This document shows positions 3,494 to 28,754 of a stretch of DNA of 64,000 nucleotides, piece by piece. Source of the DNA: Synechococcus sp. (lineage in GTDB: Bacteria > Cyanobacteriota > Cyanobacteriia > Thermostichales > PCC-7336). Under the pieces are notes generated by a model. That model was not told the origin of the DNA and searched no databases. It saw only the letters and a list, made by a program, of their open reading frames with translations. Each line of letters begins with the position of its first letter. Position 1 is the stretch's first letter. The DNA is taken from the NCBI GenBank assembly GCA_051439605.1, contig JBFRWN010000013.1, forward strand, positions 1 to 64,000, given 5' to 3'. The position numbers and the translations under genes were made by a program.

Positions 3494-6400
3494 GTGCTGA
3501 CCGCTAAGAATGTCACCCCTGGAATGGGGGCGCATTACTACAAAAAGGAGAACTACTATTCCAGCGAACAATCGCAGGAGCAGTCGCGCTGGTTCGGAAA
3601 AGGTGCGAAGCAGCTGGGACTGCGAGGAAAAATACAGCCGGAAGTCTTCGAGCAGTTGTTGAATGGGGTACTGCCTTCGGGCGATCGCTTCCGCACCCGC
3701 AGGCGATCGCAACAACCTTCTGTACCGGGAAAGAAGCAGCCGCAAGTACGAGCGGGATTGGACCTGACCTTTTCCGCGCCCAAGAGCGTCAGCCTTCTGG
3801 CTCTTGCCTACGGTGATGGAGAATTGGAGAAGGCTCACCGCATTGCTGTGGAGCGAACGCTGAAGGTTGTCGAGCAGCGCTACGCTCAAACGCGAGTTCG
3901 CTTCGGCTCGGCGGAGAAGGACCGTCGCGTCGTCACCACCGGCAACTTGGTAGTGGGACATTTTCACCACGACACCAGCCGCGAACTCGATCCGCACCTG
4001 CACACTCACTGCGTTCTGCTGAACATGACTCGGTTGGAGAACGGCAGGTGGTACAGCCTGCACAACGATCGCATCTACAAGCACCGCAAGTTGCTGGGCC
4101 AGATCTATCAGAACGAGTTGGCTCGGCAGGTGCAGCAGTTGGGCTATCGCATAGAGCCCAGGGACCACGGGCAATTCGAGATTGCGGGCTTTAGTCGAGA
4201 GCAATTGGAGTTCTTCTCGGAGCGGAGACGGCAGATTCTCCAGCACATTGGGGCAGAGTCCACTTGGGCGGAGCGAGAGTCGGTTTGGGATGCGACTCGG
4301 ACCAAGAAAGGGGAACCGGTTGCTCGACAGGAGCTGCAGAATTTCTGGTTTCGGGAAGCGCAGTCGATTAGGATTGAGTTTCCGCAACGGGAGAGGAGAT
4401 CGCAGCTTGAGGATGACAGCGAGGAGCAGCTGAAACAGGCGATCGCGGATGGTATAGAACATTGTTCCGAGCGGGAGGTAGCATTCCCAACTGAAAGCAT
4501 CGAGCAGTTTGTCCTCTCTGAGGTTGGCAAGTTCGGTCTCGGTCAAGTACAGACAGCGATCGCCGAATCTGAGGAGTTGATTTACCTGGACGACAAGGTG
4601 ACCACCGAGAAGGCGGTGCAGCGGGAGCTGTCTACGATTCGCCTGATGCACCGGGGCCAGGGGCAGGTGGAGGCGATTGCCGAGCCAGAAGCCATCGCTC
4701 GGTATTTGGACGGGAGAGAAGCGCCGAGACCGAATGACAAACGGCTGACTGCTGGACAGCGAGAGGGCATCGAGTTGGCTGCGACTACCAGCGATCGCGT
4801 CGTGGCTTGGCAGGGGGTGGCTGGGGCTGGAAAGACTTTTGCCTTGAAGGAATTCAAGGTGATCGCGGAAGGGCAAGGATATGTGCTGAGAGGATTCGCT
4901 CCAAGTGCGGAAGCGGCCAAGGTTTTAGGGGAAGAGGTGGGTATATCCAGCGCAACGGTAGCTAGTCTATTGTTTTCGCCGTTATCCAATCGCCAGAACT
5001 CTCACGAAATTTGGGTAGTGGACGAGGCAGGGTTGCTAAGTGCCAATGACGCTCTGGCGTTGTTGGCGCGGGCGCAACGAGAAGGGGCTCGGACGATTTT
5101 GGTGGGGGATACTCGACAGTTGTCGGCAGTGGAGGCAGGCAATCCATTCAAGAGCTTGCAGCAGGCGGGAATGCGCATGGCTTATTTGGACGAGTCGAGG
5201 CGTCAGCGCACTCCCGAACTGAGACAGGGGGTGAGGCTTATTTCTAGAGGTCGCGTAAGGGAAGGAATCGAGCAGTTTCAGCAGACGGGTTGTATTGCGG
5301 CGATCGCCGACGAATCACAACGGCAAGCTCGATTGGTGGAGGACTACTTGGCTCTCTCGCCCGAGGAACGTGACAGAACGCTCGTGCTGGCGGGCACGAA
5401 TCGGGAGCGATTGGGGATTACCCAACGGATTCGAGCTGGTCTACGGGAGGAAGGGCAGCTGGGAGAAGGAGTGCAGATCGAGCGGCTGGAGGCTCGCGAT
5501 CTGACGGAGGTGCAGATGCGCTACGTCCATCACTTTGCGGAGGGGGATGTGGTGATGCCGCTGTATCGGAACGTGCGACAGGGGTTGGAGAAGGGGGCGT
5601 TTTTCGAGGTAGTGGGCAAGGAGGGCGATCGCCTGGTGTTGCGGGCGGAGGATGGCTCGCAGCGGATTGTGGATGTCCAGTTCAAGAAGGTGGTGTTTGC
5701 GCGCAGGGCGATAGAGATTGCGCCAGGGGATGTTTTGCGATGGACGAAGAACAACAGGGAGTTGGAGCGGCGAAACGGGCAGCAGTTTTGGGTGGAGTCG
5801 ATTGAGGGGAACGAAGCACGGGTGCAGTATGCGGACGGACGGTTCGAAGCGATCGATCTGTCGCGACCCCAGCATCTGGATTACGCTCTGGTGTCTACGA
5901 CCTATGCGGCACAGGGGAAGACTGCCGAGCGGGCGTTAATTGCGGCGGATCGTACGATTGGGAAGGAGAGTTTCTACGTCGCTGTCAGTCGGGTCAAGAC
6001 CGACCTCAAGCTCTACACCGAGAACATCGAAGGGTTAACGAAACTAGCTCAGCGGAGTCGAGCCAACCAGAATCCTATCGAACTGTTGCGGCAACAGTTG
6101 CGAGAGCGACTGGCGCAGGAATCCGCAGTTGGAGGAGAGACTTCTGAGAATGCTTCATCTGAAGTCGGCGATCGCTCCGAACAGCAACCCATCACCAGGA
6201 ATGTGGAGAGGCCATCAAAGCCTGCGAAACCGAAGTGGTGGCCGCGAGTTGTCAGTAACGAGGGAGAGGGCGATCGCCAACCCGAAATCGATCGCAATCC
6301 CGGTCTCGAACCGAAGCACTATGACGAACTACACCGCACCAGCGCGATCGCTGCCGAACTGATTGCCCTCAACTTCCTAAGCCTGCGAGGAGAGGAAACC

Positions 6401-7825
6401 TACCGGCGCGTTTGTTACTCCGATCGCCTATCGCGAAGGAAGGATGGAGAGTTGAGCGATCGCGTTCGGCGTCGGTACTCCCATCTGGAGAAAGGGGGCT
6501 GGTGGTGTAGCGGTCTCGACCCGCTCGATTACTGGAAGCCCATGCAGTGGGGCTGTTTCAAGCCAGACTATCCCCGCATTTCCAAAGACAAGGGGAAGCC
6601 CATCAAGTACGAACACCCCATAAAAACATCGACGCGGGCGTTTTTCCTCGACGTGCCCGATCTCATTTGGGAAAAGGTGGCTCGCAGCTACGGTTTGGAG
6701 ATGCCTGGCTATCGCGGCGAGGGATTTTGGGCTTGGGTGCAGCGAGAGCAGGTGCCGATTGTGTTGGTGGAGGGGGCGAAGAAGGCAGCTTGTTTGTTGA
6801 GTGCGGGGTATGCAGCGATCGCGTTGCCGGGGATTTGGAATGGTCGGCGCAAGGCGGCTGGGGGGAAGCCGGAGCGGGTGATTCCGGAGTTGCTGGTGTT
6901 TGTGCGGGAGGGGCGGGAGGTGTTTTTCTGCTTTGACCGGGATGAGAAACCGAGGACTCGCAAGAACGTGCAGGATGCCATTTGGAAGACAGGGCGGTTG
7001 TTGCAGCGGCAGGGGTGCGAGGTGGGGGTTATCGAGTTGCCGGGACCGGAGAAAGGGGTTGACGATTTTGTTGTGGGGCAAGGGGCTGGAGCATTCGAGG
7101 CAGTGTATGCAGAGGGGCAGTCTTTCCGCGAATGGGATGGTAAGCGGCGTCGCGATCGTCCCGAGCTATTGGTCGAAATCGAGACTGGAGATCGGAAGAA
7201 GGTTGCTATGTTCGAGCCCCCTGATAGGAAGGAAAAGTATTGGCCCCTTGTTCGCGAATACTTGGTAACCGAAAGGAGCCTTCCGGAGGAAATGATCGAT
7301 AGCTTGCACGATGCTGGCCAGCTCTATGCGGCAGGGTTGAAAGAGGGGCAGGAGTTCGGAGTAGTTTTCTTGGAACGGGACTTCTCTGGAAATATCACAG
7401 GTGCCTTCCAAAGTAAGTTATTGCCAGGTCGCCGATCACAGAGGTGCGATCCTGGTGATAAAAAAAATGAGGGCTGGTTCTACTTCTCCATGGGAGAAGG
7501 TCAGAAGCTTAAGCGAGTCGTGCTGGCTGAGTCGCCTATTGATGCCTTATCGGCAGCTGTGCTGACCCAGCGGGATGTGAAAACAATGTTTGTTGCTGTT
7601 GACGATCTTGAGAGAATTCCAGCTCGACTAATTGAGGGGGCGATCACACGGGGTGGAGAGATTTATGTAGCTTCCAATGCGAACGTACAAGGTGAAAGTA
7701 TGGCGGCAATAGTAAAAGAAGTATTTCCGCAAGCCATTCAAATTCGACCACCTCTTGCGAGAGAGTGGAATGATTGCCTACGATCACTCGAACGAAATAA
7801 CATGCACAAATCCATGGCCTTTTAG
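3494..7825 (+). CDS. MOBF (TrwC-type) relaxase fused to SF1 helicase and C-terminal DUF3854- and Toprim-like primase domains
   Basis: N-terminal YY..NYY, DLTFSAPKSVS, HDTSRELDPHLHTH (HUH); helicase GVAGAGKT, DEAG, GDTRQL; VEGAKKA..ALPGIWNG; ESPIDALS. Confidence 0.92.
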   Translation: MLTAKNVTPGMGAHYYKKENYYSSEQSQEQSRWFGKGAKQLGLRGKIQPEVFEQLLNGVLPSGDRFRTRRRSQQPSVPGKKQPQVRAGLDLTFSAPKSVSLLALAYGDGELEKAHRIAVERTLKVVEQRYAQTRVRFGSAEKDRRVVTTGNLVVGHFHHDTSRELDPHLHTHCVLLNMTRLENGRWYSLHNDRIYKHRKLLGQIYQNELARQVQQLGYRIEPRDHGQFEIAGFSREQLEFFSERRRQILQHIGAESTWAERESVWDATRTKKGEPVARQELQNFWFREAQSIRIEFPQRERRSQLEDDSEEQLKQAIADGIEHCSEREVAFPTESIEQFVLSEVGKFGLGQVQTAIAESEELIYLDDKVTTEKAVQRELSTIRLMHRGQGQVEAIAEPEAIARYLDGREAPRPNDKRLTAGQREGIELAATTSDRVVAWQGVAGAGKTFALKEFKVIAEGQGYVLRGFAPSAEAAKVLGEEVGISSATVASLLFSPLSNRQNSHEIWVVDEAGLLSANDALALLARAQREGARTILVGDTRQLSAVEAGNPFKSLQQAGMRMAYLDESRRQRTPELRQGVRLISRGRVREGIEQFQQTGCIAAIADESQRQARLVEDYLALSPEERDRTLVLAGTNRERLGITQRIRAGLREEGQLGEGVQIERLEARDLTEVQMRYVHHFAEGDVVMPLYRNVRQGLEKGAFFEVVGKEGDRLVLRAEDGSQRIVDVQFKKVVFARRAIEIAPGDVLRWTKNNRELERRNGQQFWVESIEGNEARVQYADGRFEAIDLSRPQHLDYALVSTTYAAQGKTAERALIAADRTIGKESFYVAVSRVKTDLKLYTENIEGLTKLAQRSRANQNPIELLRQQLRERLAQESAVGGETSENASSEVGDRSEQQPITRNVERPSKPAKPKWWPRVVSNEGEGDRQPEIDRNPGLEPKHYDELHRTSAIAAELIALNFLSLRGEETYRRVCYSDRLSRRKDGELSDRVRRRYSHLEKGGWWCSGLDPLDYWKPMQWGCFKPDYPRISKDKGKPIKYEHPIKTSTRAFFLDVPDLIWEKVARSYGLEMPGYRGEGFWAWVQREQVPIVLVEGAKKAACLLSAGYAAIALPGIWNGRRKAAGGKPERVIPELLVFVREGREVFFCFDRDEKPRTRKNVQDAIWKTGRLLQRQGCEVGVIELPGPEKGVDDFVVGQGAGAFEAVYAEGQSFREWDGKRRRDRPELLVEIETGDRKKVAMFEPPDRKEKYWPLVREYLVTERSLPEEMIDSLHDAGQLYAAGLKEGQEFGVVFLERDFSGNITGAFQSKLLPGRRSQRCDPGDKKNEGWFYFSMGEGQKLKRVVLAESPIDALSAAVLTQRDVKTMFVAVDDLERIPARLIEGAITRGGEIYVASNANVQGESMAAIVKEVFPQAIQIRPPLAREWNDCLRSLERNNMHKSMAF

Positions 7826-7900: not shown

Positions 7901-10900
7901 TTAATAGCCAGCCAAGCGAGATGAACGTGACCACACATATTGTTCACAAGTCCTTTTGGCCTGAAATGCACTTGTACCGTGAAAAGGATTCTCTAGGATT
8001 GCATGATCGTGCAACCTCCAACATGCAGCGTCAAGCAAAGTTTCCCAGCTAAAGCTCCAAAGTCTGACCGTTCCGTCGTTGCCTCCACTGACAATTGTGG
8101 AGCCATTCTCATTCACTGCTACGGCATTGACAATCCCATTGTGACCACGAAATGGCTCACCTACGGGAGTACCGTCAGGCTGCCATAGCCGCACCGTTCC
8201 ATCGTTACCCCCACTAAGAATAGAAATTGAAGAGCCATACCCGCTCAAGCCTACTGATATGACTATGCCTTGATGGCCTGTAAAAGGCTCTCCGATCGGG
8301 CTGCCATCAGGCTCCCACAACCGCACTGTTCCATCTTCTCCCCCACTTACAATAGTGGCATTGTCATCACTGAGAGCCACGGAGTTAACCCACCCTCGAT
8401 GGCCTGTGAAGGGGGAGCCAATTGGGGTGCCGTCTGGTTTCCACAGTCTCACTGTGCCATCTCTACTGCCACTGACAATAGTGGAGCCATCTTCACTTAT
8501 GGCTACAGACATAACGATGCCCTGGTGGCCTGTGATTGAGTTTCCAATTGGGGTACCGTCAGGCTTCCACAGTTTCACCGTGCCATCTTCACCCCCACTG
8601 ACAATAGTGGAGCCATCCTCACTTATGGTCACGGATCTAACAATTCCCTGGTGACCTGTGAAGGGCTCTCCGATGGGGTTGCCGTCTGGTCGCCACAGCC
8701 TCACCGTCCCGTCTTCACCCCCACTGACAATGGTGGAGCCATCCTCGCTCATAGCAATAGAACGAACGATGCCTTGATTGCTTGCCAAAGGCTGACCAAT
8801 TGGGGTGCCGTCAGGTTGCCACAGTCTCAACGTTCCATCTTCACCTCCACTGGCAATGGTGGAGCCATCCTCACTTATGGCTATGGACCTAACATTGCCC
8901 TGATAGGCTTGAAGACTATGTTCCAGTGGCGCTCCTTCTGGCTGCCATAATCGTATAGTGGCGTCATAGCCTCCACTCAAGATTGTGAAGCTACTCTCAC
9001 TCTCACTGAGAGCCACGGCCCTAACTATGCCTTGATGACCTAGAAAGGGTCTGCCGATGGATGTACCATCTCGCTGCCAAAGACGCACTGTGCTATCTTC
9101 ACCCCCACTGACAATGGTTGAGCCATCCTGGCTAATGGCCACGGCTCTAACAATTCCCTGGTGACCTTGAAAGGGTTGTCCTATTTGTGTGCCGTCTCTT
9201 AACCACAACCTTATGCTGCCGTCTTCTCCCCCACTGACGATGGTGGAGCCATCCTCACTTATGGCTACGGACCTAACAATTCCCTGATGACCTTGGAAGG
9301 GGTCTCCGATGGGGCTGCCGTCTGGTCGCCAGAGTCTCACTGTCCCATCCGCCCCCCCACTGACGACGGTAGAACCATCCTGGCTAATTGCCACAGACCA
9401 TACCCTCTTCTGATGACCTAGAAAGGGGTCTCCCTCTGGCCTGCCATCTGGGTGCCACAGTCTCACTGTGCCATCCTCGCCCCCACTGACAATTACGGAA
9501 CCATCATCGCTGATGGCTACAGACAAAACTCTATCTTCGTGACCTTGGAATGGTTGGCCTATGAGCGTACCGTCCTGCTGCCACAGCCGCACCGTACCAT
9601 CTTCACCTCCACTGACGATAGAGGAACTATTTTCACCTACTGCTACAGACAAGACTCGGCCATCATGACCTCTGAAAGGTTCCCCGAAAGATTTACCATC
9701 TAGATTCCACAATCGAATTGTGCCGTCGCCGCTTCCACTAACAATAATGGAGTCGTCTTGAGTCAAGGCCAAGGACCAAACACCATCATGCTGATGCCCA
9801 CTCAAAATGTCACTTTCTCGGCTGTGTTCCACTGCACTTAACAAACTCCCCGTTACTATGCCTGGCACGTGCCAGTCAGGCAGTCTCAAAAACAGAGACC
9901 GACTCATTCCGATAGCTTCGATCGCTTGAGTAAGACCTCGTGTGGGTGCTGTAGAGAGTAAACTATCAACTCCCTGGGCTTTGGCTATAACAAGTTGACG
10001 TTGCGACTGTTGCCACTGCCATGCTGTTAGAAGCAACAAAGTGCACAGAATGCCAATGCCGCTAATTACTCCAAGCTTCCGAACTTTCTCCGCAGTCCTG
10101 GAAGCTTTAAAAAAGTCTATTTGTGTTTTGGTTAGTTCGCCAGGCGAACTCTTTACATACTCCTCCAACAAATCAAGCCTTGGACGCGCCCAAAGACTGC
10201 TTCTGTGTCTTCCCTCTTCTTCCCAGGCCTTTGCTGCTTCGTCTAATCGCCGTTGAAAGCGAATATCCTCACGATTATTGTCTAGCCACTCGTTGAGCTG
10301 GTCCCAATGTTCGAGCAATGCTTCGTGAGTTACTTCAGCCGTCTCGGATTGTCCTACTTCACCCGAGAGAGTAATCAAACGTGCGCCTCTGCTTGAAAAT
10401 TTTTCGATTACCTGTTTAGCCCATTCTGGTTTATCCCGATGAGACAGTAGACTATCCACCACGGCTCGTCGGCGCGTATCTCGACTACCTTCCCCCAACT
10501 GAACCAAACCGAGGAAGATCCGCTTGGCAATCTCTTGTTCTCTCTCCCCCAAACTGTCATAGATTCGCTGAGCTTCCCCTGCAAGTGCTCCGCCTACACC
10601 ACCAATCTCATTAAGTGTCTGTGATGAGTCGATCCCCTTCGCCATCCCCTCCCAAATTTGTGTGAGGGCAAACTGCAATAGGGGCAATGCCCCTTCTCGT
10701 CCTTTCGTCTCCTCAATCAAACGGTTCACCGTCCCCATATCCAGTGGGTGGCCAGCTCGCTCTGCGGGCATTGAGATGGCTCGCCGCAATTCCCCCTCGC
10801 TCATTGCCGGAACAACAAATAACTGACTGGCAATTAAACGATTGAGTTTGGGATGCCGCTGAGTTTCTCCCAAAAAGTCACTGCGCAGGGTTAAAACCAC

Positions 10901-11647
10901 CGTCACCCGTCCTGCTCGATCACCCGCAGCAAGAAGCAAGTTCTCGATAAATCCAACACGTTCGTTCAAGTCCTTGCACAACGAGTAGACTTCCTCAAAC
11001 TGATCTACAAGCAATATCAGTGGGGATTGGTCGCTATCGGGCAACAAATTCACAATCCGCCGCAACCCGTCATACTCTCCCAACTTACTAGCGAGACCCA
11101 ACTCTGCCTCGAATTCGCGCGCCTTGGCCGCTGGTGTCGGATCGTTCGTTGCGTTCCGAGCTAAAACACCAGCTAGTGCTTCTATAGGATGCGTGCCTGG
11201 AGTGAATAGAGCGACCCGTACCTTTGTCGTGCCCGGAAGCGATCTCCTGGCAAGTTCAGGGATCAAACCCGCTCGCGCCAAAGATGATTTCCCACAACCC
11301 GAAGGCCCTAGGATGGGTAGAAGTCTATAAGTTATCTCCTTTTCTGTTCGAGATTCGTGCAGATTTCGCAGTAACTCCCATAGCTGCTCGATTTGCGTTT
11401 CCCGCCCGAAATATTGATTGGCATCCGCTTCCTGAAAAGCAGACAATCCCACGTAGGGATTGGGACCAATATAGACTGGCTGGTGCGGCAGTTCCTCCTC
11501 ACGCTCGCGACTGAGATAGTAGATCTTGACCTGATTGTTATCGCCAGAAATCAGGGTGCTGCTGACAACATCCCGAGTGACTGAGATGCTACGGTCATCA
11601 GCTAGTTGCTGAACGGAATCTTCGGGACCGTTATCTAAACCAGCCAT
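7901..11647 (-). CDS. nSTAND1-type NTPase with transmembrane helix and 14 WD40 repeats (NLR-like)
   Basis: NPYVGLSAF, GPSGCGKSS, LLVDQFEE, LTLRSDF, LPLLQFAL, EVTHEALL; hydrophobic LGVISGIGILCTLLLLTAW; 14 GH..DGTVRLW-type repeats. Confidence 0.92.
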   Translation of the reverse strand: MAGLDNGPEDSVQQLADDRSISVTRDVVSSTLISGDNNQVKIYYLSREREEELPHQPVYIGPNPYVGLSAFQEADANQYFGRETQIEQLWELLRNLHESRTEKEITYRLLPILGPSGCGKSSLARAGLIPELARRSLPGTTKVRVALFTPGTHPIEALAGVLARNATNDPTPAAKAREFEAELGLASKLGEYDGLRRIVNLLPDSDQSPLILLVDQFEEVYSLCKDLNERVGFIENLLLAAGDRAGRVTVVLTLRSDFLGETQRHPKLNRLIASQLFVVPAMSEGELRRAISMPAERAGHPLDMGTVNRLIEETKGREGALPLLQFALTQIWEGMAKGIDSSQTLNEIGGVGGALAGEAQRIYDSLGEREQEIAKRIFLGLVQLGEGSRDTRRRAVVDSLLSHRDKPEWAKQVIEKFSSRGARLITLSGEVGQSETAEVTHEALLEHWDQLNEWLDNNREDIRFQRRLDEAAKAWEEEGRHRSSLWARPRLDLLEEYVKSSPGELTKTQIDFFKASRTAEKVRKLGVISGIGILCTLLLLTAWQWQQSQRQLVIAKAQGVDSLLSTAPTRGLTQAIEAIGMSRSLFLRLPDWHVPGIVTGSLLSAVEHSRESDILSGHQHDGVWSLALTQDDSIIVSGSGDGTIRLWNLDGKSFGEPFRGHDGRVLSVAVGENSSSIVSGGEDGTVRLWQQDGTLIGQPFQGHEDRVLSVAISDDGSVIVSGGEDGTVRLWHPDGRPEGDPFLGHQKRVWSVAISQDGSTVVSGGADGTVRLWRPDGSPIGDPFQGHQGIVRSVAISEDGSTIVSGGEDGSIRLWLRDGTQIGQPFQGHQGIVRAVAISQDGSTIVSGGEDSTVRLWQRDGTSIGRPFLGHQGIVRAVALSESESSFTILSGGYDATIRLWQPEGAPLEHSLQAYQGNVRSIAISEDGSTIASGGEDGTLRLWQPDGTPIGQPLASNQGIVRSIAMSEDGSTIVSGGEDGTVRLWRPDGNPIGEPFTGHQGIVRSVTISEDGSTIVSGGEDGTVKLWKPDGTPIGNSITGHQGIVMSVAISEDGSTIVSGSRDGTVRLWKPDGTPIGSPFTGHRGWVNSVALSDDNATIVSGGEDGTVRLWEPDGSPIGEPFTGHQGIVISVGLSGYGSSISILSGGNDGTVRLWQPDGTPVGEPFRGHNGIVNAVAVNENGSTIVSGGNDGTVRLWSFSWETLLDAACWRLHDHAILENPFHGTSAFQAKRTCEQYVWSRSSRLAGY
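8050..9815 (-). repeat. Tandem ~126-bp WD40-coding repeats, 14 copies
   Basis: Recurring CCCCCACTGACAATAGTGGAGCCATC-like units on the + strand at ~126-bp spacing. Confidence 0.85.
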
Positions 11648-11678
11648 AGAGCTTCTTCTCAAAGCTGTCGCAATTCAT

Positions 11679-12098
11679 TCAAACCACCATACCGACAATG
11701 CCAAGAAGCTTGTGCCAGTTCTGACCTAACCAAGCAGCTGCCCCCTTCAAATGTCCAGCCAGCTTCTCGGTCACAGACGCCAACTCTTCGGATGTTGTGG
11801 CGTACTTAAGAGCGCGTTCCAGAGCAGAACCTACCTCGTTCTTGTCTGGATCGTCTTTCTCCAACTCATCGGCCACATCTTCCATTGCCCGCTCGATCTT
11901 GCGACTATCTGGAGTCTGTAAGGCAGCCAAAATCTCTTTGATTGCCGCGATCTCCGCTCGGATATCGACGGTTTCTTGCGGTGGGAGTTCGGTCTGTCGA
12001 TACTCCACTGAAACCGTATTACTATCTCCCGTTAAAACCGCACTGCCGATAATGTTTCCAGTCGATACCGAGCGATTGTGAGATGAAGTTTCTCCCAT
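11679..12098 (-). CDS. Small protein: N-terminal beta-motif matching the NLR N-terminus plus helical domain (candidate NLR effector)
   Basis: 139 aa; NRSVSTGNIIGSAVLTGDSNTVSVEY then helical region ending in AAWLGQNWHKLLGIVGMVV; ends 31 bp before the NLR ATG. Confidence 0.8.
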   Translation of the reverse strand: MGETSSHNRSVSTGNIIGSAVLTGDSNTVSVEYRQTELPPQETVDIRAEIAAIKEILAALQTPDSRKIERAMEDVADELEKDDPDKNEVGSALERALKYATTSEELASVTEKLAGHLKGAAAWLGQNWHKLLGIVGMVV

Positions 12099-12192: not shown

Positions 12193-12513
12193 CTACTTAC
12201 GAGATAGAGTGATCGCGCTTCCCATCAAGCTTTGAAAGCAAAAGACAAAGACTACAACCCGCAACACTTTCCACGCGATTCTCAGAACGTGCCATGAAAG
12301 AATGGCTGTTCCCTTAACCACCAACCAAAGCACCTTCCCCACAACCTGGAAGTGCTTCTCCAACTGCCCCCGACAAAGGGGATCGCGATCCTCTTGGCCA
12401 TCGCCATAATCTACATGTGCAGCCTGCCATTGGTCTTCCATCAAATAGCGCACTGTTCCATCGGGTAATTCTTCCGCAATGGAATAGTCATAAATCCGTT
12501 CGCGAGCTGCCAC
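12193..12513 (-). CDS. Hypothetical protein with C-terminal hydrophobic segment
   Basis: 106-aa ORF, GTG start with AGGAGG Shine-Dalgarno just after the T4CP stop. Confidence 0.65.
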   Translation of the reverse strand: MAARERIYDYSIAEELPDGTVRYLMEDQWQAAHVDYGDGQEDRDPLCRGQLEKHFQVVGKVLWLVVKGTAILSWHVLRIAWKVLRVVVFVFCFQSLMGSAITLSRK

Positions 12514-12528
12514 TTTCTCCTCCTGACA

Positions 12529-14352
12529 TTAATCTTCCAACTCGATATCCTGCAAAAATGTATTCCTAGCCAACAGCGCAGTCACTAAAGGTTCGTCAGG
12601 TGCAGGAACCGCCACCGAACTTCCTTTACCTCCAGCTTTATCCGGTTTCGGCAAAAACCGATTCGTCTCCTCGTACCGCTCCCGCAACTCCGCCTCCGTC
12701 ACACCAGCAGACTTATTCGATTCTCTCAGCTGTGCCAACTCCAACTTAAACTCCGCAGTTGCCCTGTCAACCTTCCGCAACTCCTGACTCGGAATCTTCA
12801 CCTTCACCTGCATCGGTAAACTCGCCCGCCGCCGATTGGCCAAGCCGGGAGTCACCACCACGCAAGTTCCCGTCGGCTGCGTCAGAAACTGATTGGCATC
12901 CACCAACTTGCGCGTCCGGTCCTGGTCCGCAATATTGGAACTTCCCCTACCGCCGCTGTGCCCCCGCGATCGCTGCTTCAGTCGAATATCCTCCTCCCCC
13001 AGATACTTGCTAAACATCTCCGCTGCCTCGTACTCCTGCGGATTGAAAATCATCTTCGTCCCGCATCCCCCAATCGCAATCCGCGCCCCCTCCTTGCCGT
13101 ACATCCGTTCCAACTGAGCCAAATTTTGAAACCCCAACAACCCCACAAACCCATCCTCCCGACTTTCGTTCAACCAATGCCCCAGCCGCGGCAGGTAAAA
13201 CGTCGGCACCTCGTCCAGCGCCACCACCAGCGGAGTCCGTCGCGGTCGGGCCAAATTGCGCTCCACAATCAAGTGCAAGATCGTCGCCACCAGCGGAGCC
13301 ACCACATCCCGTCTCTGCCGGTCCATGCCGAACACCACCATCTGCCTGCGATTCAAATCCAGCGGCAGCGTGGTTTCCCCGTAAAACGACGTCAGCAACC
13401 CCGCTTTCATAAACCGATTGAAGTTGACGAACGCCGTCGAGATGATGCTGGCCACCGTTTCGGGGGATTTTGCCGTCGCCGTCAGCTGGCCGAAACTGGT
13501 GCGAATCCAGTAGTTCAGCTGAGCATGGTTGAGGCGATCGATGAGGGAATCCAGCTGCAGCAAGCAGGTACACATCATAATGTCGGGATACTTGCTGGCC
13601 TTGGCCAACATCAAAATCGCCTCCGTCAGTTGAATGCCCGCAATATCGAAAAACGGATTGTCCCCTCCCCCCGTCGCACTCCCCGTCAGCCGCTTGAAAT
13701 TGGCATTCAGCACTTCGGCAATCTGCCGGGCCGTTTCGGCATCCGCTTCGCCGCGCAAAAAATCTAGCGGGTTGCATACCTGCGATTCGGGATAGCCAGG
13801 GGCAAAGATCGAGACTTCGTAGCCCATCTGCTGTGCATAGCCTGCTAACCGCTCGGTCTGGTTGGGGTACTTGAAGTCGTACAGAACGATGGGAAATCCC
13901 TGGCAAATGGCACTGCGCACCAGCGGGTCGATCGCCGAAAAGGTCTTCCCGGACCCCGGCCCGCCAAACACCGCAAACCCGCGCTGGGCATCGGGAAAGT
14001 AGAGGGTTTTCGCATCGGGGGGACAGTAGTAGATGGAGCGATCTCCTTCTCTGACGAACTCAGCTCCGGACGGTTCGCGAATCCACAGGGCAACGGAATT
14101 GCGCTGGGGAGATTCGATTTGAGAGATGGCCCGTTCGCGAGCGTTGCGCCGTTCCCTATCTCCGGCAAACTTGCCGCGCGCGATCTTGCCTTTTGGCTTG
14201 CGACCGCCGAATAGGGCCAAAACGCAGAGGGCGATGGCACATCCCCCAAACAGGAGAATGCTGGGGGAGGTCAGCGAATCGAGCAAGTGGTCGAGCAACG
14301 CGCTTTGGGGCAGGTCTGGCTGGCTCTGTTGCTGGGTGAAAACGACTCTCAC
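12529..14352 (-). CDS. virD4: Type IV coupling protein (VirD4/TraD-like)
   Basis: N-terminal TM helix, Walker A GGPGSGKT, YDFKYP, CNPLD, Walker B ALDEVP, GFQNLAQL. Confidence 0.9.
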   Translation of the reverse strand: MRVVFTQQQSQPDLPQSALLDHLLDSLTSPSILLFGGCAIALCVLALFGGRKPKGKIARGKFAGDRERRNARERAISQIESPQRNSVALWIREPSGAEFVREGDRSIYYCPPDAKTLYFPDAQRGFAVFGGPGSGKTFSAIDPLVRSAICQGFPIVLYDFKYPNQTERLAGYAQQMGYEVSIFAPGYPESQVCNPLDFLRGEADAETARQIAEVLNANFKRLTGSATGGGDNPFFDIAGIQLTEAILMLAKASKYPDIMMCTCLLQLDSLIDRLNHAQLNYWIRTSFGQLTATAKSPETVASIISTAFVNFNRFMKAGLLTSFYGETTLPLDLNRRQMVVFGMDRQRRDVVAPLVATILHLIVERNLARPRRTPLVVALDEVPTFYLPRLGHWLNESREDGFVGLLGFQNLAQLERMYGKEGARIAIGGCGTKMIFNPQEYEAAEMFSKYLGEEDIRLKQRSRGHSGGRGSSNIADQDRTRKLVDANQFLTQPTGTCVVVTPGLANRRRASLPMQVKVKIPSQELRKVDRATAEFKLELAQLRESNKSAGVTEAELRERYEETNRFLPKPDKAGGKGSSVAVPAPDEPLVTALLARNTFLQDIELED

Positions 14353-14363
14353 GCTCTCGCCCT

Positions 14364-15146
14364 CTAATTAGACTGCGAGGCCCGAACCAGTTCGCTGGCG
14401 ATGTCGAGCGGCACGCCAAAGCGATCGCGCAATTTCTCTGCCATCAGCGCTCCCTCCGCACTGTCAGTAGATCCCAGCGCCCGCCACTCACCGTCAACTC
14501 GCTGTCCCACGTAATGACCGCTGGCATCTCCCCGCTGGAACCAACTGGCGATTGCATAGTCCCCCACAATCTCCACCCGATTAATACTCTTTGGGCCGGG
14601 GGGCTCGTTGAAGTGAAGGAAGGCTTCGACAAGCGAATCGATATCGGGGTTGGCGGATGACAGAGTGTACAGGTCGGGAAACTCAACCCCAAGGTCCTGC
14701 AGCGCTGCCACCTCTGCTTCGCTGCGATAGGTATCGATATCGCTGTCCACCTCTTGCTGGAAGATCCCCTCAAGTTCTTGCTTGCCCCCCGCCAACTCGA
14801 TCGCCAGTTCGTAGTTCTGCCGGTAAAGCTCAAATGCCACCTCGTAAGGCTTCACATCATCCAGCGATTGGGTGATGTCGGAGCCATCCAACAACACTTC
14901 ACACTGGCCGGAGTGATCGACCTGCGAGACAGACACGAACGGAGCGTTTTGCTCGGGATCGATACCGATCAGGTAGTAATAGGTCAGCTCGTCGCGTTCT
15001 GCGGAAGCCCGCAATTGAATGTCGGTGGCTCCTGCCGGGATGCAGGGGATCGCTTCTTCGGGTAGCTGAGCGGTTGCCAGCGGGGCAACACCTGTTGATA
15101 TGGCAGCAGCGATCGCCACCACCCGAACAATTCGACGAATCTCCAT
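14364..15146 (-). CDS. Exported acidic hypothetical protein in conjugation operon
   Basis: Signal peptide MEIRRIVRVVAIAAAISTGVAPLATA; tight spacing within operon. Confidence 0.7.
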   Translation of the reverse strand: MEIRRIVRVVAIAAAISTGVAPLATAQLPEEAIPCIPAGATDIQLRASAERDELTYYYLIGIDPEQNAPFVSVSQVDHSGQCEVLLDGSDITQSLDDVKPYEVAFELYRQNYELAIELAGGKQELEGIFQQEVDSDIDTYRSEAEVAALQDLGVEFPDLYTLSSANPDIDSLVEAFLHFNEPPGPKSINRVEIVGDYAIASWFQRGDASGHYVGQRVDGEWRALGSTDSAEGALMAEKLRDRFGVPLDIASELVRASQSN

Positions 15147-15158
15147 AGCTCGTCCCTC

Positions 15159-16577
15159 CTAAAATTCGACATAATTGCGAGGATTTTGCGGCACCCAATT
15201 CTTGTAGGTTTCGAAATGCAGGTGAGGTCCCGTAGATAGCCCACTATTGCCAGACAACCCCACCACTTCTCCCCTCGTCACAGGCTGGCCCACCGCAACA
15301 TCGATGCGACTCAGGTGGGCGTATCCAGTAGTGAGGCGATTGCCCTCCTCGTTAACGCCGTGGTCGATAACCACGTAGTTTCCGTATCCCCATCTTGGTG
15401 CAGCAACCATCACCACGCCATCGCAAGCTGCTCGAATCGGGGTACCCATCGGCGTGCCCAGATCGATCCCCGAATGCTGTCTCTGGAATTGCCCCGTGAC
15501 CGGATTGACGCGCGGGCCAAACTCGCTGGTGACGGGAGCGCCAGAGGCGGGATGGCTGAGGTCGTGACAGAAGGGTAGATCGAGAGGGGGTGTCGGCGAG
15601 GGTGCGGGCTCCGGCGCTGGAATCTCCCCCGGTAGCAGCGGCGGAGTGGGGATCGGTCTCGGAACAGTTGGCGGAGCCGGAACGGCACTGACTGTCCCTA
15701 GCAAAATCCAATCTTTCTCCCGATGGCCAAACCAAGGAAACGGGCCGATGAAATAGGGGGAGCAGGAATCGACAGCCAGGGTTTTGATGCAAATGCGAAA
15801 GTAGGTTCCGAACTGGGCCGAGCTCTCCACTTCATCCACCTCCAGCAGCACCACCTTGAAGCCATCCGTAATCGGATGCCGTCCCGTTGGTTCCTTGCCT
15901 CCATTCAACTCCCCCAGCGGCCAGCCGTACCCCCCATTAACCTCCTGCTCCCCCCATATCCACCGCTTGCCGTGGGCCACCGGCTGCGTGGAAAACTCGA
16001 TATGAGCGCATCCAAGCCGATCGCAAGGGACGTTAAATCCATCTTTGTCGCTGCCGCTGATGGTGTTGCCGATATACCCCTCTCGCTCGCCCAACGGCAC
16101 GTCGAACTTCCCCCACACCCCAAAATTCAGCAGGCTCAACATCCGCTCTACAATTTTTTCCCCTAGCCCACCGGCATATTCCGGAATCAGTTGTTCGATA
16201 GTCGATCGCCACAGATCGAAGTTTTCTCGCGTCAGGGGATTCGTCCGATAGACAATTTCTCCAATTGCCTGAATCACGGCCACCGAAGCGTAATCCAGCA
16301 GGTATTCCTCCTGAAACTGCTGCCACAAGCGGTTGGTCTCCGCATAGTCCAAAGCCTGTTCTTCCAACTCCTGAAAAATGCCGACGACTTGCTCGATTTC
16401 CTCCGGCGCAAAACCCGCCGACTCCATCAAGTCAATCAATGCCTCGTAATCGAATCCTGCCTCGCAATCCCAAGCCGGGAGGCTGTCTGCACAATCCTGA
16501 GCGACAGCCGGAGCGGACATCGCCAGCTGCACAACTCCCAGCAATGCCAGCGGTGCCAGTGCAGACCAACCCTTCAT
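15159..16577 (-). CDS. M23 metallopeptidase domain protein (conjugation-associated cell wall hydrolase)
   Basis: Signal peptide from ATG 16577 (TGATG overlap with upstream stop); Pro-rich linker; HSGIDLG, GYGNYVVIDH, STGPHLHFE. Confidence 0.88.
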   Translation of the reverse strand: MKGWSALAPLALLGVVQLAMSAPAVAQDCADSLPAWDCEAGFDYEALIDLMESAGFAPEEIEQVVGIFQELEEQALDYAETNRLWQQFQEEYLLDYASVAVIQAIGEIVYRTNPLTRENFDLWRSTIEQLIPEYAGGLGEKIVERMLSLLNFGVWGKFDVPLGEREGYIGNTISGSDKDGFNVPCDRLGCAHIEFSTQPVAHGKRWIWGEQEVNGGYGWPLGELNGGKEPTGRHPITDGFKVVLLEVDEVESSAQFGTYFRICIKTLAVDSCSPYFIGPFPWFGHREKDWILLGTVSAVPAPPTVPRPIPTPPLLPGEIPAPEPAPSPTPPLDLPFCHDLSHPASGAPVTSEFGPRVNPVTGQFQRQHSGIDLGTPMGTPIRAACDGVVMVAAPRWGYGNYVVIDHGVNEEGNRLTTGYAHLSRIDVAVGQPVTRGEVVGLSGNSGLSTGPHLHFETYKNWVPQNPRNYVEF

Positions 16578-17269
16578 CACTGCAATCCGCCCAGCTGACC
16601 GGACTGATAGCTGTCGTACCCCTTCTGAGCCAGCTCCTGAACGACGGTTATCGACACGCCCGCCTGCTGAGTGGCCGGTAACACTCGCTCGCCGTTTTGC
16701 ACCAATCCCAAAAAGGACTGCACCCGCTCCCTCAAGGGATTGTCGTAGGGCATCGACCCATCCCGCACGGCCATCTCCAGACCCATCGTCACGAACCGCA
16801 CCGGCACCCGGCGGCGATCGGTCAGTTCCACCAGCGGCAAGCCCGGCGTGTCGGGATGGACGGACAACACCGCACAGTTTGAATCTGTAGCTTGGTAGAC
16901 CAGCGTAAACGGATAGGTTTGCCGACCCCCTTGGCGATCTTGAGTCAGCACCAGCATTTCCGTTGTCGGCCCCGAAGGCAGGTGGGGGATGTTTACCCCC
17001 GTAATCGGACGCAGGAAGATCGTGCTGGCATAGCCCGAATCCAGATTGGCATCGAAATTGAGGGACACCTTTTCGGGGTTGCTCAGTTCCACGTGGCGAA
17101 TGACGTCTCCGGCAGGGTTGAAGTCGATGGCCGTCACCCCCGACCGGACGTAAACCCGATGGCCGTTGCGCTGGATGGCGCTGGCAAATTTGCTGCAGGT
17201 GGGAGTTTGAGCAACCGCTGCCGCTGCCAGGGATAAGGTGGCAGCGATCACCAGAGTTACAGCTTTCAC
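16577..17269 (-). CDS. Exported T4SS component, VirB9-like by position
   Basis: GTG start overlapping upstream TGA; signal peptide; beta-rich N-terminal domain; follows VirB10-like gene. Confidence 0.6.
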   Translation of the reverse strand: MKAVTLVIAATLSLAAAAVAQTPTCSKFASAIQRNGHRVYVRSGVTAIDFNPAGDVIRHVELSNPEKVSLNFDANLDSGYASTIFLRPITGVNIPHLPSGPTTEMLVLTQDRQGGRQTYPFTLVYQATDSNCAVLSVHPDTPGLPLVELTDRRRVPVRFVTMGLEMAVRDGSMPYDNPLRERVQSFLGLVQNGERVLPATQQAGVSITVVQELAQKGYDSYQSGQLGGLQ

Positions 17270-18612
17270 AATCGAATCTCCCGATTGACAACAATTTGGA
17301 CGGGCTGACCGGCCTCTACCGTCCACAGGGGCTTTCGCTCCAGTGATTCCTCAATCGAGCGTTCGGTGCGGCTTTGAATCCCCGGAATCACGGCATCGGC
17401 ACCGCCCTTGAGAATGCCGCCCAGAATGTTGATGTCTCCGTTCTCGACAGAGCTGGAGAAAGAGCTGCCCCCGAAGGAGGAAATGGAACTGGTGTTCGAA
17501 CTCGATGGCCGGTTTAGCAGTTCCCCCACTTCCCCAAGCGCCCCTAGAACGAACAGTCCCGTTTCCTGGGAGGCAATGTCCGGACCTGGATCCAGACGGC
17601 GATCGCCCCGAGCCAGCAACGCCTCTCCCCCTTCACCGCGCACGGAAATCGATCCCACCGTCAGGGGAATTTCCTGGCGAACGCCATTGAGATGGGTAAC
17701 GACCGCCACCCCGCTCATGCGTGCATAGCCGTTGGGCAGAACCCCATCCACCTGCACCACCAATTCGCTGTGGGTGGGCACGGCAGGCAGGTTTTCGCTA
17801 TCTCGCAGGGGCGAGGTCAGCTGCACTACAAACCGCTCGGCATCGGTCTCCACATCGGGCGACCAAATGACTGGCGCAGCGATCGCCCCCGTTGCCGTCG
17901 AGCCTGCCGGAATGGTTCGAGTGACGGTTCCCCGCAGAAACTCTCGTTCCAAGCTCAAGTCGATTTGAGGAGACGCAGCCGGATCGCTAGCATTCAGATT
18001 TGTGGAGGTTTGTCGATTGCGGATCGAGTCGATTGGATTGGCGATCGCGGCAGACGTAGAAGCGACTTGGAATGGCGGTTCGGAAATCTTGCCGTAGCTG
18101 CCGATTGCGTTAATCTCTGCCCAAAGCTGCAGCGGATCGGGCTCCGGCTCTGGAGGAGGAGGTGGTGGAGCCGCTACGGGAGCCGGTTCGGGTTCTGGCT
18201 CCGGAGTCGATTCCGGCTCGGGCTCCTGTCGCAGTTCGAACTGGTTCAAATCGTTCGCCTGTTCCCCCAACGCCATCCGCGTCTTGATATCGGCAGGGAT
18301 TTCTTCCGGTACCGAGGGAGCCTGCAACTGCACGATCTCCCCCTCGTTCCCCTCCGATTCCCGAGCTATTTGCGTCGGAGCAAATCCGCCCGTCACCAGC
18401 TTGTAGACGAAGAACGCAAAGCCCCCCACCGAAAGCACGATCGCCGCCAGAGCCACAGCTTTGGCAACCGGATTGTTGGCAAGCGTCTTTCGTTCCGGTC
18501 GATAGAGGCTTTCCAGTTCGTGCAGCAAATCGTCCGTCTCATCCAGGACGCGCTGTTTGGGAGTGCGGTCGTCGTACCCCAGCAATTGATTGAAATCGGT
18601 CGGTTCGCTCAC
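17266..18612 (-). CDS. TrbI/VirB10-like T4SS core protein
   Basis: Single TM helix, Pro/Glu-rich linker (PEPEPEPAPVAAPPPPPP), TIPAGS and TVEAGQPVQIVVN VirB10-type motifs. Confidence 0.8.
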   Translation of the reverse strand: MSEPTDFNQLLGYDDRTPKQRVLDETDDLLHELESLYRPERKTLANNPVAKAVALAAIVLSVGGFAFFVYKLVTGGFAPTQIARESEGNEGEIVQLQAPSVPEEIPADIKTRMALGEQANDLNQFELRQEPEPESTPEPEPEPAPVAAPPPPPPEPEPDPLQLWAEINAIGSYGKISEPPFQVASTSAAIANPIDSIRNRQTSTNLNASDPAASPQIDLSLEREFLRGTVTRTIPAGSTATGAIAAPVIWSPDVETDAERFVVQLTSPLRDSENLPAVPTHSELVVQVDGVLPNGYARMSGVAVVTHLNGVRQEIPLTVGSISVRGEGGEALLARGDRRLDPGPDIASQETGLFVLGALGEVGELLNRPSSSNTSSISSFGGSSFSSSVENGDINILGGILKGGADAVIPGIQSRTERSIEESLERKPLWTVEAGQPVQIVVNREIRL

Positions 18613-19409
18613 GGCTCCTCTCCTGATTCGACAATGGGTTCCAAACGCAGGCCGTCAATGGCGTAGATCTCCATGCCTCCGCTGCGGTATTCCTGCATGG
18701 CCAAAGCAGTTGCTGTGGAATTGCCCGTGACGCGATAGGGCTCTACCGCTCTGACAAAGACGGATTTGTTAAACGGGAGCCGGTCGGTCTCCATCCCCCG
18801 CTGGGTGATGACGCGGGTGGCCACCATATCCACCTGCCACTGCCCCTCCCCCACCGGCTTTGGGTTGGAGAGATTGCGAATCTCCAGGTGCATCTCCACC
18901 TGCTCGTTAGGATCGAAGACTTCTGGCGGAGTGATGTCGGCAATGGCTTCCAGCATGGAGGGGCGGGGGAAGTCCGCAGACAGAGCGTGGCTGGCCGCCC
19001 AAGCGGAGGTAGCAATAATCCGATCGCCCAATTGGAACTGGCGATCCTCCACCCACCGGCCCTCTCCATCCGGCACGGTGCCGGTCGCGGTAAACAGCGC
19101 GGTGGCGACGGTGTAGACGTAGCTGCGAATGGCCGCTGGCGAGCGCTCGTTACGGGCGATCGCCTCCACCTGCATCGACGTGCCGTCCTGCAGCTGCACC
19201 AATGCAGGCACCGGGCGCTTGGCGATTTGATAGACGAACAACCACTGCAGCAGCTCCACCAGGAGCAGTGCAGACAGCACGAAGAAATGAACCGATCCGC
19301 CTGACAGAGATGAATTAGAACGACTTTGCAAAACCTCGGGGGATGACGAATCCACCAGTACGGTGCCGAGGTGCGAGTTTTGGGATGCGGATTTTGCAGA
19401 AGCAGACAT
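18609..19409 (-). CDS. VirB8-like T4SS inner membrane protein
   Basis: One TM helix followed by LVQLQDG and a soluble domain (QWQVDMVATR); between VirB6- and VirB10-like genes. Confidence 0.6.
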   Translation of the reverse strand: MSASAKSASQNSHLGTVLVDSSSPEVLQSRSNSSLSGGSVHFFVLSALLLVELLQWLFVYQIAKRPVPALVQLQDGTSMQVEAIARNERSPAAIRSYVYTVATALFTATGTVPDGEGRWVEDRQFQLGDRIIATSAWAASHALSADFPRPSMLEAIADITPPEVFDPNEQVEMHLEIRNLSNPKPVGEGQWQVDMVATRVITQRGMETDRLPFNKSVFVRAVEPYRVTGNSTATALAMQEYRSGGMEIYAIDGLRLEPIVESGEEP

Positions 19410-19413
19410 GGGA

Positions 19414-28747: not shown

Positions 28748-28754
28748 TCTAAAC

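What the first reader, a model, noticed from the sequence alone, without database searches (positions are those of the whole stretch)
11516..12098. Matched N-terminal amyloid-like motif shared by an NLR and its upstream small protein: candidate homotypic immune signalling pair
Seen: the nSTAND1-WD40 protein has no N-terminal effector domain, only a short leader containing DRSISVTRDVVSSTLISGDNNQVKIYY (11516-11596). The 139-aa protein 31 bp upstream begins with NRSVSTG-NIIGSAVLTGDSNTVSVEY (12000-12077). They align as RS[IV]S..[DN][VI][VI].S.[LV][IL][ST]GD.N.V.[IV].Y, a beta-arch-like pattern of alternating hydrophobics with G/N/D turns, and the proteins otherwise look unrelated. Known: fungal NLR/HET-s pairs and bacterial NLR/Bell (BASS) pairs signal by amyloid templating through a motif shared by adjacent genes, usually placed at the effector C-terminus. 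Inference: this is such a pair, but with the motif at the effector N-terminus followed by a helical bundle ending in an amphipathic AAWLGQNWHKLLGIVGMVV helix that could damage membranes. It could act as abortive-infection cargo of the ICE.
Basis: partly seen in the sequence, partly recalled or inferred. Interest (0 to 1): 0.9.

Follow-up and report, generated by a model that had tools for sequence, protein, structure and literature searches.

The report
NLR–effector gene pair sharing beta-motif
An immune-type sensor protein and the small protein encoded just before it carry the same short strand-forming tag, a pairing kept in dozens of cyanobacterial genomes, so the sensor probably switches on an undescribed helical death-type protein by tag-to-tag contact.

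Summary
The 139-aa protein (11679-12098, -) and the nSTAND1-WD40 protein after it (7901-11647, -) share a ~27-residue motif. Local alignment scores 65 against 26±5 for shuffles (0 of 5000). The NLR is the best non-self match in the genome.

The pairing is conserved. In 39 of 59 related loci a same-strand neighbour carries the motif in its first 100 residues, and 36 of those neighbours are nSTAND1. Cognate motifs are more alike than non-cognate ones (1 of 20000 permutations, 29 non-redundant pairs), but not significantly so in one subgroup.

The small protein consists of the motif, a linker, and a confident four-helix bundle with a conserved C-terminal helix. No Pfam, NCBIfam, PADLOC or solved-structure relative was found. 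The same unit also ends CHAT, TIR, caspase, trypsin, pentapeptide and Roc-COR proteins. AlphaFold leaves the motif disordered in both forms. Its composition fits published amyloid signalling motifs.

Best reading: a two-gene sensor/effector cassette coupled through the motif. It resembles BASS/Bell and HET-S/NWD2, but the motif lies N-terminal to a different effector domain and the NTPase is nSTAND1.

Amyloid templating and membrane damage are inferred, not shown. The tail is not a classical transmembrane helix. ICE linkage is specific to this window.

The parts
11679..12098 (-). Gene for the 139-aa motif plus four-helix-bundle protein, the putative effector
   Evidence: ORF. 346 relatives at E<=1e-3. 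No Pfam, NCBIfam or PADLOC family.
12000..12077 (-). Effector-side copy of the shared motif (residues 8-33)
   Evidence: pLDDT <50 over residues 6-35.
11697..11966 (-). Four-helix bundle (residues 45-134; helices 46-58, 65-79, 86-100, 106-124, 130-134)
   Evidence: AlphaFold2 with 87 sequences; 10-residue block means of pLDDT are 86-94 over residues 41-130 and 71 for 131-139. The same bundle scores 89-97 in a CHAT-fused relative.
11682..11741 (-). Conserved C-terminal helix (residues 120-139), the most conserved stretch of the family
   Evidence: W123, L124 and G125 are nearly invariant in 87 sequences. Mean Kyte-Doolittle 0.93, so not a classical TM helix. The unit ends at the protein C-terminus in 142 of 150 representatives.
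7901..11647 (-). nSTAND1-WD40 NLR-like gene; ATG at 11647, listed ORF from TTG at 11662
11516..11596 (-). Receptor-side copy of the shared motif, in the leader before the NTPase
10202..11458 (-). nSTAND1 NTPase domain (residues 69-487 of the listed ORF)
   Evidence: PF20703, E 3.7e-112.
8063..9820 (-). WD40 repeat region (approximate bounds), the presumed sensor
   Evidence: PF00400, 14 stretches, E 1.8e-132.
12529..14352 (-). Context: type IV coupling protein gene upstream on the same strand
   Evidence: TraG-D_C, TrwB_AAD_bind and T4SS-DNA_transf.
3494..7825 (+). Context: TrwC relaxase-helicase with DUF3854

Best explanation
This is a two-gene sensor/effector cassette. The nSTAND1-WD40 protein is the sensor. 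It has no effector domain of its own, only a ~27-residue strand-prone motif in front of the NTPase. The gene before it encodes the effector: the same motif, a short proline-containing linker, then a four-helix bundle ending in a conserved C-terminal helix.

Proposed sequence of events (inferred):
1. Ligand binding to the WD40 region drives NTPase oligomerisation.
2. Oligomerisation crowds the N-terminal motifs so that they fold together into a beta-structure.
3. This structure recruits and folds the matching motif of the effector. The most likely form is in-register stacking, as in amyloid signalling motifs.
4. Clustering activates the bundle, most likely by releasing its C-terminal helix towards the membrane, and the cell dies or stops growing.

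In relatives where CHAT, TIR or caspase domains precede the motif, the same clustering would activate those enzymes by proximity.

Shown here: the shared motif, its conservation in pairs, partial co-variation, the domain anatomy and the fusion partners. Inferred: direct binding, amyloid-type templating, membrane action and a role in defence.
For: Motif similarity is far above chance.

Conserved pairing:
- 39 of 59 related loci have a same-strand neighbour with the motif in its first 100 residues. 36 of these are nSTAND1 by tblastn.
- Pfam confirms nSTAND1 starting at residue 60-94 in 29 of the 30 neighbours scanned, out of 41 neighbour ORFs.
- Standalone forms have the NLR downstream (11 of 11). 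Long forms mostly have it upstream (22 of 28).

Co-variation: cognate pairs score 55.7 against 49.5 for non-cognate, and 1 of 20000 permutations reaches this over 29 non-redundant pairs. An earlier set of 16 pairs gave 0 of 20000.

The motif travels with the bundle. It lies just upstream in 117 of 150 representatives and in 116 of 116 new top hits of a motif profile.

The motif occupies the effector slot of the NLR. A paralogous nSTAND1 on contig C93 has a TIR domain there, and two others have no leader. In this genome the motif profiles hit only these two genes below E 0.1; the profiles include both sequences.

The motif is predicted disordered both in the monomer (pLDDT <50) and between the CHAT and bundle domains (pLDDT 27-36), as expected for a conditionally folding element.

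Composition: Q+N+G+V+I is 49% and K+P+L is 3%. This fits the bias reported for BASS motifs, section 9 of preprint 10.1101/2020.01.06.895854, except that Q is rare here.

Fusion partners are classic immune effector or sensor domains.
Against: There is no direct evidence of binding or fibrils.

Co-variation is modest:
- The median rank of the cognate partner is 8 of 29.
- It is not significant within the 13 pairs with the NLR upstream (2098 of 20000).
- Part of the signal is therefore subfamily structure.

9 of 59 loci with at least 2 kb on both sides have no motif-bearing neighbour, and 11 more are uninformative because a flank is short. 5 of 16 standalone loci lack a partner.

26 of 150 representatives have room upstream but no profile hit. 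Many of these show other G/N/D-rich stretches.

The tail is not a predicted transmembrane helix. The bundle matches only generic helical bundles, so its effector role rests on context.

In the CHAT/TIR fusions the bundle could be an accessory rather than the killing part.
Confidence: 0.6

Rival explanations
1. The motif is a docking tag that forms a defined, stoichiometric beta-sheet contact between NLR and effector. This is the adaptor principle of effector-associated domains, with no self-propagating amyloid fold.
For: The same architectural rule is described for EADs: one copy on the NTPase, one on the neighbour's effector, and adjacent copies more alike (passages of PMC7159879). The motif is strongly conserved across the family: R at column 2, G at 18 and N at 21 are nearly invariant. 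That suits a fixed interface as well as a fibril.
Against: EADs are described as small globular domains. This motif is ~27 residues and is predicted disordered. No EAD family of Pfam matches. Its composition resembles beta-solenoid or amyloid signalling motifs.
Confidence: 0.25
2. The bundle protein is not the effector. It is a regulator, anchor or inhibitor that holds or localises the NLR through the motif, and the killing activity lies elsewhere, for example in the CHAT or TIR part of long forms.
For: The unit is fused behind enzymes that could be effectors on their own. The tail is too polar for a constitutive membrane anchor, and no pore-former fold was recognised.
Against: In this window and in 11 standalone loci the pair holds no other effector candidate. 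The NLR itself has only motif, NTPase and repeats. A Roc-COR protein carries the unit at the position where such NTPases carry outputs.
Confidence: 0.1
3. The two motifs do not touch each other. Both are recognised by a third factor, for example a protease, chaperone or localisation machinery.
For: A disordered, conserved short segment is typical of linear recognition motifs.
Against: No third conserved gene accompanies the pair: the neighbours differ between loci and the conjugation genes are absent elsewhere. Cognate copies co-vary, which a common third-party site does not predict.
Confidence: 0.04
4. The similarity is a chance match of low-complexity sequence.
For: BLASTP reports no alignment. 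WD40 repeats give weak partial hits to the motif profile.
Against: 0 of 5000 shuffles reach the score. The pairing recurs in 39 of 59 loci.
Confidence: 0.01

Closest known systems
BASS / Bell-domain-NLR gene pairs (Dyrka et al., preprint 10.1101/2020.01.06.895854; sections 7 and 9 and passages read)
   Same: A ~25-residue motif is shared by the N-terminus of an NLR-like protein and the product of the adjacent collinear gene. Gaps are short, the hosts are mostly filamentous cyanobacteria, and composition is rich in N/G/V/I and poor in K/P/L. CHAT and TIR also occur as motif-linked effectors.
   Different: The motif lies N-terminal to the effector domain (or between two domains), not at the C-terminus. 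The effector domain is a four-helix bundle with a conserved C-terminal helix, not a recognised Bell domain. The NTPase is nSTAND1, whereas that screen used NACHT and NB-ARC only. Q is rare and S/T are common. I could not compare with the BASS1-11 logos, which are in figures and supplements that I could not see.
Bab/Agp (BASS11) antiphage system of E. coli (preprint 10.1101/2024.11.07.622273; abstract, section 4 and passages read)
   Same: A small helical death-type protein and a large neighbour share an amyloid motif. That motif is described as having four glycine breakers and a key D-N pair, and is also linked to TIR, CHAT and NTPases. The motif here likewise has four conserved glycine positions and a G-D-x-N turn.
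   Different: Bab has its hydrophobic helix at the N-terminus and the motif at the C-terminus; here the order is reversed. [quoted passage not shown] Identity of the motif families is untested.
HET-S / NWD2 of Podospora (recalled; also summarised in the two preprints above)
   Same: An NLR with a WD40 sensor and a single N-terminal motif copy, and an effector with a helical domain that exposes a terminal helix to the membrane after the motif folds.
   Different: The layout here is a mirror image: motif first, helix last. The effector carries one motif copy, not two pseudo-repeats. No sequence or fold match to HeLo was found.
Effector-associated domains, EAD1-11 (Kaur et al. 2020, PMC7159879; passages read)
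   Same: Homotypic coupling of a core NTPase to effectors encoded next door, with adjacent copies most alike. One relative here carries EAD1 plus trypsin in front of the unit.
   Different: EADs are small folded domains with Pfam models. This is a short, disordered motif with no match to those models.

Membership tests
NLR-associated amyloid signalling pairs (BASS/FASS type) | Short (~25 aa) motif shared by the NLR N-terminus and the product of an adjacent collinear gene | tested here: met
   39 of 59 loci. The gap is 31 bp in the window.
NLR-associated amyloid signalling pairs (BASS/FASS type) | Effector-side motif at the C-terminus of the effector protein | tested here: not met
   The motif is N-terminal (standalone forms) or internal (fusions), always upstream of the bundle: 117 of 150 and 116 of 116.
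NLR-associated amyloid signalling pairs (BASS/FASS type) | Composition enriched in N, G, V, I (and Q), depleted in K, P, L; beta propensity | tested here: met
   Q+N+G+V+I is 49% and K+P+L is 3%, though Q alone is 2.6%. The CHAT-fusion model shows short strands at residues 226-228 and 234-236. Criterion from section 9 of the preprint.
NLR-associated amyloid signalling pairs (BASS/FASS type) | Forms amyloid fibrils, seeds its partner, behaves as a prion-forming domain | not testable with these tools
   Needs ThT/EM, ssNMR or foci assays.
NLR-associated amyloid signalling pairs (BASS/FASS type) | Sequence match to a described family (BASS1-11, HRAM, sigma, PP/RHIM) | tested here: inconclusive
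   No Pfam family of any kind reaches significance on either motif stretch up to E 10. The BASS profiles and logos were not available to me.
Bell / Babybell / HeLo-type death domains | Helical domain with a conserved terminal pore-lining helix; recognisable sequence or fold relation | tested here: inconclusive
   The domain is a four-helix bundle with a conserved terminal helix, but at the C-terminal end. Fold searches list only generic bundles: Foldseek found nothing at E<=1e-3, and the VIA best Z is 8.2. The PDB sequence search gave nothing relevant.
Effector-associated domains (EAD1-11) | Match to an EAD model; small folded domain | tested here: not met
   No EAD hit on either protein. The motif is predicted disordered.
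Effector-associated domains (EAD1-11) | One copy on the core NTPase and one on an adjacent effector, with adjacent copies most alike | tested here: met
   Co-variation is modest and is not significant in one subgroup.
nSTAND1 STAND NTPases (PF20703) | Match to the family model above the curated cut-off | tested here: met
   E 3.7e-112, 376 bits against a cut-off of 27.1.
TCAD2 (PF19971) / DUF4404 (PF14357), leads from the protein atlas | Match to the Pfam model | tested here: not met
   The atlas feature score is 0.91/0.90 only. Neither family matches any of 87 members at E<=0.01. One long relative has a sub-threshold DUF4404 row.

The most novel reading that the evidence does not exclude
This is a new family of prokaryotic amyloid-type immune signalling with inverted topology. 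A single beta-arch-like rung sits N-terminal to a previously undescribed four-helix-bundle death domain, and the membrane-seeking helix is at the C-terminus, a mirror image of HET-S and Bell/Bab. The rung is templated by nSTAND1 receptors. In many cyanobacteria the same rung sits between a CHAT or TIR enzyme and the bundle, so one templating event would fire two warheads.
Probability: 0.33. Interest if true: 0.78.

Novelty: new variant of a known kind. Interest (0 to 1): 0.62.

Why it matters
[quoted passage not shown] Later tools still assume effector-side motifs are C-terminal. This cassette falls outside both filters, yet it is widespread. The unit has 346 cluster representatives at 50% identity and appears in 59 species-level genomes. 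Every member that carries a name is called 'hypothetical' or 'CHAT domain-containing'.

If the reading holds, it would add three things:
- a new effector domain;
- a new receptor clade for motif-based signalling;
- evidence that the motif can work from either side of the effector.

It also gives a compact two-gene system, 139 aa plus one NLR, for testing how STAND oligomerisation is passed to a separate death protein.

Tried and rejected
- BLASTP of the two N-termini found no alignment, so I used Smith-Waterman with shuffles instead.
- Complex prediction with the NLR leader alignment A3 and the small-protein alignment A2 scored 0.00 in two runs, no verdict. This is not evidence either way.
- Foldseek against PDB found nothing at E<=1e-3. 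VIA-align wide gave only generic helical bundles, best Z 8.2. The PDB sequence profile search returned designed helical proteins only.
- Pfam, PADLOC and NCBIfam on the small protein and both motif stretches gave nothing above noise.
- The protein atlas gave unnamed clusters plus weak leads to TCAD2 and DUF4404. Pfam scans did not bear these out.
- No RNA holder was listed among the sequencing runs, and no reads were laid.
- The promoter/terminator scan gave counts equal to shuffles.
- Relatives of this window's coupling protein, relaxase and two flanking ORFs were sought in the 59 loci and none was found. The ICE-cargo idea was therefore dropped as a general rule.
- The search of earlier findings by sequence gave nothing. 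By words it gave one note on a different motif pair in another genome.
Its listed hits were all the effector-side family, so it did not show the motif on other effector types.
The extraction was redone from stored files with hmmalign.
- I could not compare the motif with the BASS1-11 logos. They are in figures, and bioRxiv supplements are closed.
Full report
**Observation.** The minus strand carries, in order:
- a type IV coupling protein gene (12529-14352);
- a 106-aa ORF (12193-12513);
- a 139-aa ORF (11679-12098);

The large protein is nSTAND1 (residues 69-487, E 3.7e-112) followed by 14 WD40 stretches. Nothing is assigned to its first 68 residues. The small protein has no Pfam, PADLOC or NCBIfam family. 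Both motif stretches lie exactly at the coordinates given.

**Is it more than chance?** BLASTP sees nothing. A Smith-Waterman alignment of the NLR leader with the small protein scores 65, against 26.3 +/- 4.9 for shuffles (0 of 5000 either way). Among 10165 long frames of the genome, the NLR is the best non-self match to the small protein's first 40 residues. Profiles of the motif find only these two genes in the 4.9-Mb assembly below E 0.1; both sequences are part of those profiles.

**The small protein is a widespread, unnamed unit.** An exhaustive HMMER search found 346 cluster representatives at E<=1e-3, 218 of them at E<=1e-10.
- Of the 150 listed, 95 are 120-175 aa and 53 are longer than 175 aa.
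- Pfam on 25 of the 53 longer ones showed the unit at the C-terminal end of proteins with CHAT (5), TIR (3, one also with CHAT), caspase C14 (2), pentapeptide repeats (7), LRR-Roc-COR (1) and EAD1 plus trypsin (1). One protein has it N-terminal to CHASE2, one has only a sub-threshold DUF222 row, and 5 have no family.
- The unit ends within 15 residues of the protein's C-terminus in 142 of 150.

**Structure.** AlphaFold2 with 87 sequences gives a confident four-helix bundle over residues 45-134. Residues 6-35, which hold the motif, stay below pLDDT 50. A CHAT-fused relative (L018, 41 sequences) folds into a confident CHAT domain and a very confident bundle (pLDDT 89-97). These are joined by a low-confidence stretch (pLDDT 27-36) that holds the motif and shows only two three-residue strands. 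Fold and sequence searches of solved structures return only generic helical bundles.

The last 20 residues are the most conserved part: W, L and G are nearly invariant in 87 sequences. They are only moderately hydrophobic. The best 19-residue Kyte-Doolittle mean is 0.89, and 2 of 87 members reach 1.6. This is not a standing membrane anchor. At most it is a latent membrane-seeking helix.

**The pairing is conserved.** A scan of one genome per species gave 59 loci, nearly all cyanobacterial and mostly filamentous.
- Motif profiles and tblastn show a same-strand neighbour with the motif in its first 100 residues in 39 of 59 loci. 36 of these neighbours are nSTAND1. The other three are a TPR protein, one ORF cut by the contig end and one broken frame.
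- 11 loci have less than 2 kb on one side.
- 9 loci have both flanks and no partner.
- Pfam confirmed nSTAND1 starting at residue 60-94 of the open frame in 29 of the 30 neighbours scanned, out of 41 neighbour ORFs.
- Gene order depends on the form. All 11 standalone units with a partner have the NLR downstream, as in the window. 22 of 28 long forms have it upstream.
- Some loci carry two motif-bearing NLRs beside one unit (L009, L018).

**The motif.** Over 27 aligned columns both sides keep an R at column 2, S at 3, hydrophobic residues at 4, 6, 10, 15-16, 23 and 25, four glycine-rich positions (7, 8, 12, 18) and a G-D-x-N turn at 18-21. The effector-side and receptor-side copies form two recognisable subtypes. 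A receptor subtype found with long forms continues into a tyrosine-rich run. Composition is 49% Q+N+G+V+I and 3% K+P+L. This fits the bias reported for BASS motifs and beta-helical proteins, except that Q is rare.

**Co-variation.** Cognate pairs are more similar than non-cognate ones:
- 16 pairs: 53.4 against 47.5, with 0 of 20000 permutations reaching the observed value.
- 42 pairs re-extracted by hmmalign, reduced to 29 by dropping pairs at least 80% identical to a kept one: 55.7 against 49.5, 1 of 20000.
- The 16 NLR-downstream pairs alone: 7 of 20000.
- The 13 NLR-upstream pairs alone: 2098 of 20000, not significant.
- The median rank of the true partner is only 8 of 29.

So there is co-evolution, but the motif is a family-wide tag more than a private key.

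**The motif belongs to the unit.** It lies just upstream of the bundle in 117 of 150 representatives. 7 have no room for it, and 26 have room but no profile hit; many of those show other G/N/D-rich stretches before the same linker. A motif profile searched against 5.8 billion proteins gave 276 hits at E<=0.1. All 116 new proteins among the 120 listed have the bundle downstream of the motif. I therefore saw no case of this motif on a Bell-like or other effector.

**The motif sits in the NLR's effector slot.** Of the three other nSTAND1 genes in this assembly, one has an N-terminal TIR domain (E 2.4e-21) and two have no leader.

**Mechanism.** The anatomy is that of a receptor/effector pair coupled by a shared conditionally folding element. 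This is the logic shown for HET-S/NWD2 (recalled), proposed for Bell/NLR pairs and shown for Bab/Agp in E. coli. The element here lies on the other side of a different effector domain, and the receptor belongs to another STAND clade. I put 0.6 on motif-mediated coupling of sensor to effector. Within that, I put about 0.35 on true amyloid templating and about 0.35 on membrane attack by the bundle. The main rival is a defined, non-propagating beta-sheet contact in the manner of effector-associated domains.

**Context.** In the window the pair lies inside a conjugation cluster: TrwC relaxase-helicase, coupling protein, TrbI-like protein, M23 peptidase and a DUF87 ATPase. None of the 59 related loci has relatives of the coupling protein or relaxase. 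Three copies of one 39-kb mobilisable Tolypothrix/Microchaete plasmid carry a CHAT-fused form followed by an 'AAA family ATPase'. The cassette is mobile, but it is not tied to ICEs.

**What is in print.**
- The 2020 BASS screen used Bell C-termini and NACHT/NB-ARC N-termini within 5 kb.
- A 2025 paper still places these motifs at NLR N-termini or effector C-termini.
- nSTAND1 was named in PMC8195603.
- Searches for nSTAND1 or effector-associated domains, for amyloid signalling with BASS, and for amyloid with CHAT, cyanobacteria and STAND turned up no description of this unit or layout.
- I could not see the BASS logos or supplements, so the motif itself may belong to a described family. BASS11 is described with four glycine breakers and a D-N pair, which is suggestive.

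It is a parallel case that I did not test.

Noticed in passing
window 3494-7825 (+), 12529-24515 (-): The cassette sits inside a conjugative-transfer cluster. The cluster holds a TrwC relaxase-helicase with DUF3854, a coupling protein, an M23 peptidase protein, a TrbI-like protein and a 1044-aa DUF87 (VirB4-like) ATPase.
   Followed up: partly
window 12193-12513 (-): A 106-aa ORF lies between the coupling-protein gene and the small gene. It has a hydrophobic C-terminal half and no family in Pfam or NCBIfam. Whether it belongs to the transfer genes or to the cassette is open.
   Followed up: partly
L003, L004, L005, L009, L012, L014, L016, L022, L025, L029, L031, L049 (N-termini of the upstream nSTAND1 genes): The receptor-side motif of the NLRs paired with CHAT-fused units runs on into a threonine/isoleucine strand and a run of three or more tyrosines. 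The window's NLR lacks this.
   Followed up: no
L018 7398-11144 and 11187-13472; L009 2542-4326 and 4442-6085: Two motif-bearing nSTAND1 genes stand in tandem beside a single effector unit. This suggests several sensors sharing one effector.
   Followed up: no
protein P0110 (900 aa): An LRR-Roc-COR GTPase carries the unit at its C-terminus, with no motif-profile hit in front of the bundle. The unit therefore also occurs in cis, on a different signalling NTPase.
   Followed up: partly
G000 contig C93 793-2466 (-), locus L061: A paralogous nSTAND1 has an N-terminal TIR domain (E 2.4e-21). Two further paralogues, on C50 and C68, have no leader.
   Followed up: yes
window 27878-29984 (-): A YcaO cyclodehydratase gene lies next to a GNAT acetyltransferase gene. 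This may be a peptide-modification locus.
   Followed up: no
L024 7488-9812; L035 7553-8353: Standalone units without an NLR neighbour. One is followed by a frame whose start looked like a type I restriction subunit (recalled likeness, not tested). The other is followed by a hydrophobic 267-aa frame.
   Followed up: no
L060 (NZ_CP063794.1 14317-17031): On a 39-kb mobilisable Tolypothrix plasmid, the CHAT-fused unit is followed by a 523-aa 'AAA family ATPase' and then an ISKra4 transposase. The NLR may be cut short there.
   Followed up: no
window 7901-9820 (-): The WD40 repeats of the NLR give weak partial hits (7-15 residues) to the motif profile. This is a likeness in the strand-turn pattern only.
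   Followed up: no
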